Part shown: positions 35,201-38,200 of the stretch, in pieces
How positions within the stretch are numbered: position 1 is the stretch's first letter
Layout of the letters: every line of letters begins with the position of its first letter
Assembly (NCBI RefSeq): GCF_036507355.1
Contig: NZ_AP027877.1
Direction: 5' to 3' (one strand)
From: Escherichia coli
Lineage (GTDB): Bacteria; Pseudomonadota; Gammaproteobacteria; Enterobacterales; Enterobacteriaceae
Length of the DNA: 64,000 nt
Position numbers: made by a program

Positions 35201-38200
35201 CCACATTATTCAGCGTCACGGTGACGATATCGCCCGCCTGAGCGCCAGTGACCGTGCCGCTGATAATTTGCGCCTGGATATGTTCCGGCGTGTTAATGAC
35301 GTTATCGGTCGCCACCGGATTAATGGTTACCACCGGCGGCGTGGCATCCACCAGCGCCACGCGCGAAACGCTGCTCGGATTACCGGCGACATCGTTCACG
35401 CTGGCGGTGACCGTAGCGTTGCCGTCAGCCAGTGCGCCCACGTTGGCGGCGGGCACAGTCACGCTCCAGGTGCCGTCTGACTGCACGACGCCCTGATACG
35501 TCTGCCCGTTCAGCGTCACCGTCACCGTCTGCCCCGGCTGAGCGTCGGTGGTGCCGGTGATGGGCAGATCCTGCCCGCTTTCGGCGGCGTTAATGATGTT
35601 ATCGGCGGTCAGTGGATCGATGCTTAAGGCCGAGGCCTGGCTATCGACGGTAATGGTGCGGGAAGTGTTGCCGGTATTGCCGCTGAGATCCGTCACAGAA
35701 GCGGTAATCGCCACCGCGCCGTCAGGCAGATTTCCCATCGCGGCGGCAGGTACCGTCAGACTCCAGGAGCCATCGGCCTGCACGGTAGTGGTAAAACTCT
35801 GTCCAGCCAGGGTTACTGTAACGGTTTGTCCTGTCTCGGCCTGTTGAGTGCTACCGGTAAGGGTCAGTGGCGCACCTTTTTCTGCGCCACTGATAATGTC
35901 ATCGCCGGAGACGGTGTTAATGGTGATCAACGGAGAAACACCGACCAGCGTGATTGCTCGAGACGCCGCGCCAGTATTTCCTGCAGCATCTGTCACGGTG
36001 ACGAAAATCGTATTGGCTCCGCGATCCAGCGTGCGGGTTACCGCCGGGTCCAGCGCCACATTCCAGCTGCCATCTGCCAGCACGATGCCCGTCAGGACAT
36101 GAGTGCCCAATTTCACCGTTACCGTATCGCCTGGAGAAGCACCGCTGACTTGTCCGGAGATGATCTGCGCGACGGCCTGCTCGGCATTATTAAGAATATC
36201 GTCGCCCGCCACGGTATTAACACTGACCACGGGTGCTGAGGTGTCTACCGTGAAATTCGCGCTGTGGCTGGTGGCGTTCCCTGCCCGATCGCTGACACTG
36301 GCATTGACAGCGTAATTACCCTCCGCCAGTGCCTGGACTTCCGTGGCAGGCAGCGTCACTTGCCAGGTTCCGTCGCTACCGACGGTTGCTGTATGGCTTT
36401 TCCCGTTGACGGTCAGTGTTACGGTTTGCCCCGCTTCTGCATTCGACGTGCCGCTCAGTACCAGCGCGACGTTATGTTCCGCAGCACTGATGATGTTGTC
36501 CTGAGCGATGGTGTTGATGGCAAGCGTTGGCGGTTGGGTATCGACCGTTAGCAGCTGCGCGCCGGTGACCGTATTGCCTGTGGTGTCTTTCCCACTGACC
36601 AGTACCGCCTGATTCCCTTCGCCTAACGCCTGTGCATCGGCGGTCGGTACTGGTACGCTCCAGGCACCGTTAGCGCCTACGCTGGTGGTGTAGGTTTTGC
36701 CGTTAAGTGTGACGGTGAGTTCTGTTCCCTGTGCCAGATGACTACTGGTGCCAGAAAGCGTAAACCCGGCGGCCTGTTCGCTGGCGTTAATAATGTTATC
36801 GCCTGCGGTGGTGGCAACCTGCACGCTGGCCTGACTATTGTCGATGGTTAACGTTATCGAACCGGCGTCAGTGATGGTACTGCCGACAATTTGCACCACT
36901 GACCAGGTATGTTCACCTGCACTTTGCGTGGGTAACGAGACACTCCAGTGACCGTTATTGTCTACCTGAGTACTGGCAATAGTATTGCCGTTACTGTCTT
37001 TAATCTGAATAGTCGCCCCCGCCTGCCCGCTGCCGCTAAAGGTTGGCGTGGTGTCATCGGTGATGTCATTGGTGGCGAGAATGCCGCGCTGATCGCCCTG
37101 ATTATCGGTAACTAAAAATGATGGTGTGGCGTTGCCAGGCTCAGCAGGTGGCGTAGGGTTATTAATCACTTCTGTTTTCGAGTCGCCATCGCCACCGCTT
37201 GCCAGCAGTGCACCAAGCGCGCCACCACCTACCGCCGCCCCCGCCAGCCAACCCCACGGGAAGGCGCTGGTCTGAGCAACGGTATCAAGAAATGGCGCAA
37301 TGCTTTCAATCGCAGTGGTCTGGGCAGTCAGTTCTACGGGGGCTAATCCACCCGCAGCAGTATCGGCAAAGGTGATATGGGTTAGCTGTTGACCATCGGC
37401 AAACACCAGTTCCGATTGTTCAGCTGTATTCGCCGCTTGCAGGAAATAACCGTTGCAGCGGATCACCGTGCCGTCCTGCATATAGATCAGCAGGTCATTT
37501 CCTTCACGGACGTAACGCGCAACGGCAGAGGCCTGAGCATGAACCTGCACCACGGAAGGCTCATAAATAACAACCGTGACGTCGCCAGGATTAATCAGCG
37601 TTTGTTTGACGGATGTTTTACGCGAAATAACATCAATAATCAGGCTCATAATAGCATTCCTGATAAATGGCGCACATCCTTAGCGAGTCCATTTATCTAA
37701 ATAAGACAAAGGTAATCACTTAACAACGGCCCACTATTAATAATGGCAGGATTATTTCAAGTCGGGTAAGTCGTTGTATAAGCCCTGTTTAATTCCCGCT
37801 AATGGAATAAGGTTATTCACCGCAGCGGCATAATTTACGGCGGCGACCCAGCCATCATAATTGGCATTTATTTCAGCCGATTGCGCCTGAAAGACATCTT
37901 GCTCGACGGTTAATAGATCATTCAGACTGCGTTTACCCAATTTATATTCATTTTGGTACACATCTCGCGTTTTGTGCGCACTTTCGGATTGCGCTAAACC
38001 GGCTTCTTCGCGACCCCGTGCGCCGGTCCAGTTCGCATATGCCACAGACGCTCGTTGCAGCACATCCAGTTTTGCCTGTTCGACCTGCGAGGCAGAGATT
38101 TTTTGTTGCCCTTCGGCCTGTTGCACCTGGGCAGAAACCGCGCCGCCCTGATACAGCGGCGCGTTAACGTTCAGTTGTAGCTGATCATCCCAATACGAGC

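What the first reader, a model, noticed from the sequence alone, without database searches (positions are those of the whole stretch)
37300..37649. The adhesin N-terminal domain carries a TAAG motif resembling a LapG cleavage site, but no lapG/lapD is in the window
Around residue 97-100 of the N-terminal region the sequence is ...HITFADTAAGGLAPVEL..., and a hydrophobic Gly/Ala-rich segment follows (WLAGAAVGGGALGALLASGG). In LapA-type adhesins a di-alanine motif of this kind is the site cut by the periplasmic protease LapG, under control of the c-di-GMP receptor LapD. If that analogy holds, release of this adhesin would be regulated, yet the usual partner genes are not linked here. It may be an orphan retention module, or the protease may be encoded elsewhere.
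Basis: inference. Interest (0 to 1): 0.5.

Follow-up and report, generated by a model that had tools for sequence, protein, structure and literature searches.

The report
Chance TAAG in BapA-type adhesin N-terminus
The TAAG tetrapeptide is really there, but it sits in a variable loop of the known BapA-type N-terminal domain of the E. coli giant adhesin SiiEA (O-island 28), is not conserved in relatives, and lacks the other hallmarks of a LapG cut site, so it is most likely a coincidence and the finding is ordinary.

Summary
Residues 97-100 of the minus-strand ORF 29877..37649 read TAAG, a hydrophobic Gly/Ala-rich stretch follows at residues 130-153, and no lapG or lapD lies in the window.

The interpretation does not hold up.
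- The protein is SiiEA (z0609/rtxA28 of O-island 28), a known E. coli type I secreted adhesin. Its N-terminus is the curated BapA prefix domain (Pfam PF22783, NCBIfam NF033677/NF047714).
- It does not match the LapA retention-module model NF033682, which a LapA-type control sequence hits at 149 bits.
- The regex [TAP]AA[GV] is expected 0.1-0.2 times per N-terminus by chance. It occurs in 16% of 106 family members, at scattered positions.
- The closest non-E. coli orthologues have DTGEASG or NADAAVG at this spot.
- AlphaFold places TAAG in a loop inside the beta domain, with no targeting helix or DP motif.
- Six related loci show no LapG or LapD neighbours.

The hydrophobic segment plus Gly-rich linker is conserved across the family. 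The transporter is LapB/LssB-type and has a dedicated TolC-like pore. A LapG-independent stopper or tether is therefore the likeliest function.

In this window the gene is also broken by a TAG stop and a 1-bp insertion.

The parts
37350..37361 (-). Codons for T97-A98-A99-G100 (the TAAG motif)
   Evidence: Direct reading and translation. Lies in the loop between predicted strands 89-94 and 105-114.
37254..37637 (-). BapA prefix-like N-terminal domain (residues 5-132)
   Evidence: Pfam PF22783 BapA_N, E=1.6e-19. NCBIfam NF033677 at 70 bits and NF047714 adhesin_SiiEA at 512 bits. AF2 beta-rich domain for residues 1-114, most blocks at pLDDT >90.
37191..37262 (-). Hydrophobic Gly/Ala-rich segment FPWGWLAGAAVGGGALGALLASGG (residues 130-153), followed by an acidic/Gly linker
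   Evidence: Conserved in nearly all of about 110 family members, unlike TAAG. Maximum Kyte-Doolittle 19-residue mean is 1.4 here, family median 1.61. AF2 confidence is low.
29877..37649 (-). siiEA N-terminal fragment (2590 codons; by position next to the tolC28-type gene it corresponds to z0609/rtxA28), ended by an in-frame TAG at 29877-29879
   Evidence: ORF list and translation. 'AVA*TISGQ' stands where sister repeats read AVAQTISGQ. RefSeq flags siiEA as a pseudogene in O157 and O145.
21486..29831 (-). siiEA middle fragment; a 1-bp insertion at about 21510 shifts the frame
   Evidence: Frame analysis. Alignment to the intact allele of strain 100181 shows one extra A at window position 21510.
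17771..21436 (-). siiEA C-terminal fragment, carrying the type I secretion C-terminal target domain (about nt 17783-18091)
   Evidence: TIGR03661 T1SS_VCA0849, 35 bits against a cutoff of 17.6. Degenerate RTX-like repeats are present, but the strict RTX regex does not match.
37752..39107 (-). Dedicated TolC-family outer-membrane pore (tolC28 / LapE-like position)
   Evidence: TIGR01844, 416 bits. RefSeq annotation.
15605..17767 (-). Type I secretion ABC permease/ATPase of the LssB/LapB subclass
   Evidence: TIGR03375 type_I_sec_LssB, 836 bits against a cutoff of 693. JGI names homologues 'LapB'.
14433..15608 (-). HlyD-family periplasmic adaptor
   Evidence: TIGR01843, 328 bits.

Best explanation
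TAAG is a chance tetrapeptide in a variable surface loop of the BapA-type 'prefix' domain at the N-terminus of SiiEA, the giant type I secreted adhesin of E. coli O-island 28. It is not a LapG cleavage site.

The conserved anatomy of this family is a ~115-residue beta domain, a short helix, a ~22-residue hydrophobic Gly/Ala-rich segment, and then a Gly/Asp-rich linker before the first Ig repeat.

Inferred mechanism: the adhesin is exported C-terminus first by the LapB/LssB-type ABC transporter, the HlyD adaptor and the dedicated TolC-like pore. The N-terminal module emerges last. It probably acts as a stopper or tether, with the small-residue segment and linker lying in or next to the pore. 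Release would then not depend on LapG or on c-di-GMP sensing by LapD.

Shown here: family membership, non-conservation of TAAG, the position of TAAG inside the fold, the transporter class, and the absence of lapG and lapD from the window and from related loci.

Inferred only: the retention function itself.

In this window the gene is a pseudogene, so the N-terminal module is uncoupled from the C-terminal secretion signal.
For: Family membership: PF22783 and NF033677/NF047714. AFDB50 Foldseek returns only BapA-prefix proteins.

Not a LapA retention module: no NF033682 hit at E<=10, against 148.8 bits for a LapA-type control. hhalign probability is 2.8%.

TAAG is not conserved. Orthologues at 54-61% identity carry DTGEASG, NADAAVG or DAGDASG at this spot. 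Only 2 of 106 members have the motif at the same loop, and 17 of 106 have it anywhere in residues 70-150, which matches the chance expectation.

AF2 model (pLDDT 83): TAAG lies between strands 89-94 and 105-114, and residues 101-120 score 93-97.

The published definition of a LapG substrate needs a targeting helix, a DP motif and [T/A/P]AAG, located between the retention domain and the conduit segment. Here the context is strand-'FAD'-TAAG-strand.

No PF06035 or PF16448 appears among the called neighbours of the four loci that had informative flanks. No BTLCP hit appears in the six-frame translations of six related loci or of the window.

The hydrophobic segment and poly-Gly are conserved across the family. 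The ABC transporter is the LssB/LapB class with an adjacent TolC-like gene.

Literature: the P. aeruginosa PA1874 (BapA) N-terminus retains a LapA chimera but is not cut by LapG.
Against: TAAG is conserved in every E. coli allele I checked, down to 88% DNA identity. However, the whole N-terminus is nearly invariant there, so this says little.

The motif falls in the 70-150 window used by the published LapA-like search and fits the consensus exactly.

I could not search the source genome or the E. coli pan-genome for LapG or LapD.

Retention by this module has not been tested for any SiiEA. P. aeruginosa BapA is reported as secreted and only loosely associated with the surface.

I did not test whether PA1874 is homologous to BapA_N.
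Confidence: 0.7

Rival explanations
1. TAAG is a genuine LapG-type scissile site, and a BTLCP protease (with or without a LapD-like receptor) encoded elsewhere in the genome releases the adhesin in a regulated way.
For: Exact match to [T/A/P]AAG at residue 97, inside the 70-150 search window. LapB/LssB-type ABC transporter and a dedicated TolC-like pore. TAAG is invariant among E. coli alleles. Some Enterobacterales (Pectobacterium) are reported to carry lapD and lapG.
Against: The motif frequency equals chance. It is absent from the nearest orthologues. There is no targeting helix or DP motif. It lies inside the folded domain. The N-terminus is not a member of the LapA retention-module family. 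No lapG or lapD lies in the window or beside six related loci. The strict RTX regex of the published screen is not met. From my own knowledge, not tested here: the catalogued E. coli GGDEF/EAL proteins include no LapD_MoxY_N receptor. The LapG assays in the literature use empty-vector E. coli lysates as the no-protease control reaction; I did not read its outcome.
Confidence: 0.05
2. The conserved hydrophobic Gly/Ala-rich segment is a true transmembrane (glycine-zipper) helix that anchors the N-terminus in a membrane. Tethering would then be by lipid insertion rather than by a plug in the TolC-like pore.
For: A 22-residue apolar stretch with repeated small-xxx-small spacing is conserved across the family. 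Its family median maximum hydropathy (1.61) is at the usual TM threshold.
Against: In SiiEA itself the hydropathy is 1.4, below the threshold, and the segment is about one-third glycine. AF2 predicts no helix there and its confidence is low. P. aeruginosa BapA was not found in the membrane fraction, though I did not test its homology to this family.
Confidence: 0.15
3. The N-terminal module has no retention role. SiiEA is simply released and sticks to the cell surface non-covalently. The prefix domain would then serve folding, recognition by the secretion machinery or self-association.
For: P. aeruginosa BapA is recovered in the culture supernatant and in a fraction loosely associated with the surface. 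No experimental retention data exist for SiiEA. The 2025 OI-28 study does not address retention.
Against: The LapB/LssB-class transporter with a dedicated pore is the subclass linked to retained adhesins. The PA1874 N-terminus can replace the LapA retention module for surface display. A folded N-terminal domain that emerges last is the expected geometry for a stopper.
Confidence: 0.15

Closest known systems
LapA retention module with the LapG/LapD system (Pseudomonas fluorescens; NCBIfam NF033682)
   Same: N-terminal, non-repetitive module of a giant adhesin exported by a LapB/LssB-class ABC transporter through a dedicated TolC-like pore. A Gly-rich linker follows the module. A [T/A/P]AAG string occurs near residue 100.
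   Different: No sequence or profile similarity. No targeting helix or DP motif. TAAG lies inside the fold and is not conserved. A hydrophobic segment stands in place of a cleavable linker. No lapG or lapD is linked.
P. aeruginosa BapA (PA1874) N-terminus, described as a LapG-insensitive class of retention module
   Same: bapABCD-type locus (adhesin plus OMP, ABC and MFP). Alanine-rich string plus a poly-Gly linker. Retains a LapA chimera at the surface but is not cut by LapG. This is the behaviour I predict for SiiEA.
   Different: I did not test the homology of PA1874 to PF22783. Its gene order differs: here the OMP gene lies upstream of the adhesin gene.
Salmonella enterica BapA / BapBCD (SPI-9) and the BapA prefix-like domain family (PF22783, NF033677)
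   Same: Same N-terminal domain family. Same Ig-like repeat architecture. The ABC transporter is 66% identical to a Salmonella enterica type I secretion ABC protein, which I take to be BapC; the hit itself is unnamed.
   Different: SiiEA is about twice as long and sits at a different chromosomal site (between cueR and ybaT).
Salmonella SiiE (SPI-4)
   Same: A giant Ig-repeat type I secreted adhesin of an enteric pathogen. The gene name siiEA derives from it.
   Different: SiiE retention is reported to involve its coiled-coil N-terminus and the SiiAB proton channel. No siiAB-like genes are present here, and the N-terminal domain is different.

Membership tests
LapG substrate / LapA-like adhesin (criteria of Smith 2017 and Collins 2020, and the Nat Commun 2026 substrate definition) | [T/A/P]AA[G/V] within residues 70-150 | tested here: met
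   TAAG at residues 97-100. The same regex hits 16% of BapA_N family members by composition.
LapG substrate / LapA-like adhesin | Targeting helix followed by a DP turn immediately upstream of the scissile AA | tested here: not met
   The upstream sequence is QQLTHITFAD, predicted as beta-strand 89-94, with no DP motif.
LapG substrate / LapA-like adhesin | Site lies between the retention domain and the conduit-spanning linker | tested here: not met
   Strands 105-107 and 109-114 follow TAAG, and residues 101-120 score pLDDT 93-97. Pfam BapA_N spans residues 5-132.
LapG substrate / LapA-like adhesin | N-terminus belongs to the LapA retention-module family (NF033682) | tested here: not met
   No hit at E<=10. 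A LapA-type control scores 148.8 bits. hhalign probability is 2.8%.
LapG substrate / LapA-like adhesin | Motif conserved at the homologous position in orthologues | tested here: not met
   Conserved only within E. coli. Absent in the 54-61% identical orthologues. Only 2 of 106 family members have it at that loop.
LapG substrate / LapA-like adhesin | At least one RTX motif matching Dx[L/I]x4GxDx[L/I]xGGx3D | tested here: not met
   No match in any of the three ORF fragments. Only degenerate repeats and one GGNGSD are present.
LapG substrate / LapA-like adhesin | Genome encodes LapG (PF06035) and LapD (PF16448) | tested here: inconclusive
   Absent from the 64-kb window and from the flanks of six related loci. 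The rest of the source genome is not available, and E. coli genomes cannot be searched with proteins.
LapG substrate / LapA-like adhesin | LapB/LssB-subclass ABC transporter and a dedicated TolC-like pore | tested here: met
   TIGR03375 at 836 bits (cutoff 693) and TIGR01844 at 416 bits for the adjacent gene.
BapA-related adhesin SiiEA / BapA prefix-like domain family | N-terminal BapA_N domain above the curated cutoffs | tested here: met
   NF047714 at 512 bits (cutoff 425) and NF033677 at 70 bits (cutoff 35). PF22783, E=1.6e-19.
BapA-related adhesin SiiEA / BapA prefix-like domain family | Ig-like tandem repeats, a C-terminal type I secretion target domain, and adjacent OMP, ABC and MFP genes | tested here: met
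   Big_6 and Big_13 repeats, TIGR03661, and the T1SS trio. In this window the reading frame is interrupted.

The most novel reading that the evidence does not exclude
BapA_N-type adhesins, including SiiEA, may use the family-wide hydrophobic glycine-zipper-like segment plus the beta 'prefix' domain as a distinct, LapG-independent anchoring device. This could be insertion in a membrane or a wedge in the TolC-like pore, with an as-yet unknown release trigger. Within E. coli, the lineage-specific TAAG loop could have been recruited as a site for some periplasmic protease.
Probability: 0.1. Interest if true: 0.5.

Novelty: already known. Interest (0 to 1): 0.12.

Why it matters
If TAAG were a real LapG site, adhesion by EHEC-type E. 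coli would be under c-di-GMP-controlled proteolytic release, which would be a new regulatory layer for a colonisation factor. The evidence points the other way: this is an ordinary BapA-type N-terminus with a coincidental motif.

The practical lesson is that the published regex [T/A/P]AA[G/V] in residues 70-150 has a false-positive rate of about 16% in Ala/Gly-rich adhesin N-termini. It should be used only together with the helix-DP context, conservation across orthologues, and the presence of LapG and LapD.

Tried and rejected
- I looked for LapG or LapD beside family members with the look-up of encoding contigs (six look-ups). None was found. Two of the contigs had little informative flank (one 5-kb contig; one that ends at the adhesin gene).
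- The search for homologous proteins with the ABC transporter returned only Enterobacterales homologues, so it did not lead to a Lap locus.
- The search for homologous proteins with a Pseudomonas-like BapA_N N-terminus, meant to reach PA1874, returned nothing. PA1874's membership in this family remains untested.
- No held paper states whether E. coli lacks LapG or LapD. The supplementary tables of the LapA-like screens are not held.
- A genome-wide LapG search in E. coli was not possible, because the E. coli genome collection has no protein mode.
- I considered that the 1-bp frameshift might be an assembly error. That cannot be excluded. The TAG stop is a substitution and does not depend on it.

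Full report
**What is there.**
- Residues 97-100 are TAAG (nt 37350-37361), in the context ...QQLTHITFADTAAGGLAPVELTAQ....
- Residues 130-153 are the hydrophobic stretch FPWGWLAGAAVGGGALGALLASGG.
- The ORF is the first of three collinear fragments (29877..37649, 21486..29831, 17771..21436) of one giant gene.
- Upstream lies a TolC-family gene (37752..39107). Downstream lie an LssB/LapB-class ABC transporter (15605..17767; TIGR03375, 836 bits against a cutoff of 693) and a HlyD adaptor (14433..15608).
- The island sits between cueR and ybaT-glsA-copA in an otherwise K-12-like E. coli/Shigella-type chromosome.
- Core genes are at most 99.0% identical to any complete RefSeq E. coli. The first 525 bp of the adhesin gene are 100% identical to O157:H7.

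**Identity.**
- NCBIfam names the N-terminus 'BapA-related adhesin SiiEA' (NF047714, 512 bits) and 'BapA prefix-like domain' (NF033677).
- Pfam gives BapA_N (PF22783) over residues 5-132, followed by Big_6 and Big_13 repeats.
- RefSeq annotates the syntenic gene as siiEA.
- This is O-island 28 of EHEC. A December 2025 paper (PMC12758282) reports that tolC28 (z0608), rtxA28 (z0609), rtxB28 (z0615), hlyB28 and hlyD28 are needed for adherence and mouse colonisation, and are regulated by RstA and Ca2+.
- That paper does not mention LapG, a retention module or the N-terminus.

**Is the motif more than chance?** No.
- From the protein's composition (T 15%, A 14%, G 10%, V 11%), [TAP]AA[GV] is expected 0.11 times in a 90-residue window. 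From the N-terminus's own composition it is expected 0.19 times in the first 175 residues. The 2590-aa ORF has 3 matches against 3.3 expected.
- An exhaustive HMMER search of 1.84 billion cluster representatives found 148 relatives of the N-terminus.
- Among 106 relatives with good coverage, 17 (16%) have the regex in residues 70-150. The positions are scattered, mostly inside the Ala/Gly-rich hydrophobic segment. Only two (P0128, P0060) have it at the loop equivalent to SiiEA residue 97.
- The nearest non-E. coli orthologues (54-61% identity) read NADAAVG, DTGEASG, DAGDASG, GNAEAVG or DAGEVAG at this position, with a one-residue length difference. This is a variable loop.
- Within E. coli the motif is invariant even in alleles at 88% DNA identity. 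However, the whole N-terminus is almost invariant there, so this carries little weight.

**Is it a LapA-type retention module?** No.
- The SiiEA N-terminus gives no hit to NCBIfam NF033682 ('retention module-containing protein') even at E<=10.
- As a positive control I used a LapA-type N-terminal sequence that I wrote down from memory. It scores 148.8 bits over the whole model. This shows both that the model is in the library and that the control is a bona fide family member.
- hhalign of the 44-sequence BapA_N alignment (A1) against that control gives 2.8% probability.
- An AlphaFold2 model built on A1 (mean pLDDT 83, pTM 0.69) shows a beta-rich domain over residues 1-114. TAAG lies in the loop between strands 89-94 and 105-114. 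Residues 101-120 score pLDDT 93-97. Residues 127-151 have low confidence.
- Foldseek against AFDB50 finds only BapA-prefix proteins. These come from Enterobacter, Citrobacter, Cedecea, Hafnia, Pantoea, Erwinia, Pectobacterium, Cronobacter, Halomonas, Acinetobacter and Pseudomonas fulva.

**Does the context fit a LapG substrate?** No.
- The current definition (PMC13090378) is a targeting helix, then a conserved DP turn, then the scissile AA in [T/A/P]AAG. The site lies between the retention domain and the segment that threads the pore.
- In SiiEA the motif is preceded by a beta-strand and 'FAD', and is followed by two more strands of the same domain.
- The bioinformatic screens also require an RTX motif matching a strict regex, and a genome that encodes PF06035 and PF16448. 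The regex is not matched in any fragment.

**Partner genes.**
- All window ORFs correspond to named E. coli genes, a YadA-like protein, a lipoprotein or a small hypothetical.
- I recovered BTLCP genes from viral contigs with a back-translated GDCEDYA pattern. I confirmed one as PF06035 at E=5.6e-41 and built an HMM from 38 of them.
- That HMM finds nothing in the six-frame translation of the window or of six related adhesin loci.
- The precomputed Pfam lists for the neighbours of family members P0128, P0041, P0004 and P0022 show only the OMP, ABC and MFP genes and unrelated genes. The contigs for P0080 and P0083 had little informative flank.
- The locus of P0004 has two EAL-domain genes nearby, but no LapD_MoxY_N domain.
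- I could not search the source genome or the E. coli pan-genome with proteins, so 'LapG elsewhere' is not excluded by computation.
- From my own knowledge, not tested here: the catalogued E. coli GGDEF/EAL proteins include no LapD-type receptor. LapG assays in the literature use empty-vector E. coli lysates as the no-protease control; I did not read the outcome of that control.

**What is conserved instead.**
- Nearly every family member has an apolar segment rich in small residues (consensus W.W..G....GG.A.AA) about 15-20 residues after the beta domain. A poly-Gly or Gly/Asp/His-rich linker follows it.
- Its hydropathy is at the borderline for a transmembrane helix: 1.4 in SiiEA, family median 1.61.
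- The adhesin-type transporter class has been linked to retained adhesins. In the literature, the P. aeruginosa PA1874 (BapA) N-terminus has an alanine-rich string and a poly-Gly linker. It can replace the LapA retention module for surface display, yet is insensitive to LapG.
- Taken together, the most economical model is a LapG-independent stopper or tether. This step is inferred, not shown. P. aeruginosa BapA was reported as secreted and only loosely surface-associated, so a non-retention reading remains open.

**State of the gene in this window.**
- Codon 2591 is TAG, where sister repeats have CAG ('AVAQTISGQ' becomes 'AVA*TISGQ').
- A single extra A at position 21510, relative to the intact 20,778-bp allele of strain 100181, shifts the frame.
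- The only type I secretion target domain (TIGR03661) is at the far C-terminus, about nt 17783-18091.
- RefSeq likewise marks siiEA as a pseudogene in O157:H7 and O145:H28. Some strains carry intact alleles.
- Any release mechanism is therefore moot for the product encoded here, unless the stop is read through.

**Verdict.** The LapG analogy fails five of the eight defining features I could test. The locus and the domain family are already curated and, for O157:H7, experimentally studied. This is an ordinary finding of low interest.

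Noticed in passing
window 17771-37649 (-): TAG at 29877-29879; extra A at 21510: siiEA is split into three ORFs by a CAG->TAG substitution and a 1-bp insertion. The 2025 OI-28 paper treats the O157:H7 fragments z0609 and z0615 as two separate RTX adhesins, both required for adherence. Yet the only type I secretion signal is at the far C-terminus, so how the N-terminal fragment could be exported is unexplained. Possibilities include read-through, polar effects, or something else.
   Followed up: partly
Representative hits P0067, P0102, P0080, P0124: A subset of BapA_N family members carries AAAG just after the beta domain and before the hydrophobic segment (for example AVDAAAGPP and VVAAAGEDG). 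That is where a real LapG site would be expected. These, rather than SiiEA, are candidates for LapG-regulated BapA-type adhesins.
   Followed up: no
The ORFs are small (about 120-250 aa) BTLCP-like proteins, and one was confirmed as PF06035 at E=5.6e-41. Phage-encoded transglutaminase-like cysteine peptidases therefore appear to be common. Their role is unknown to me.
   Followed up: partly
window 11353-13825: Between ybbJ and cueR lies a second small insertion encoding a 120-aa hypothetical protein, a YadA-like protein (422 aa here, 436 aa in O145:H28) and a lipoprotein. The O145:H28 version has two further hypothetical genes that are missing here.
   Followed up: partly
L006 (CP035738.1) 32733-36041: In the closest full-length non-E. 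coli orthologue locus (P0004, 6001 aa), a GerE-EAL protein and a stand-alone EAL protein lie just downstream of the T1SS genes. This hints at a c-di-GMP connection of a kind other than LapD.
   Followed up: no
L011 (O157:H7 PV15-279), 928-1125: In that O157:H7 genome the TolC-family gene of the island is itself annotated as frameshifted. In the window it is an intact 451-aa ORF.
   Followed up: no
window 41900-52000 and 21200-22400: Core genes are at most 99.0% identical to any of 5,426 complete E. coli genomes, and the middle of siiEA at most 97.0%. The 5' end of siiEA, by contrast, is 100% identical to O157:H7. The source is therefore a lineage outside that collection (possibly Shigella), or siiEA is mosaic.
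   Followed up: partly
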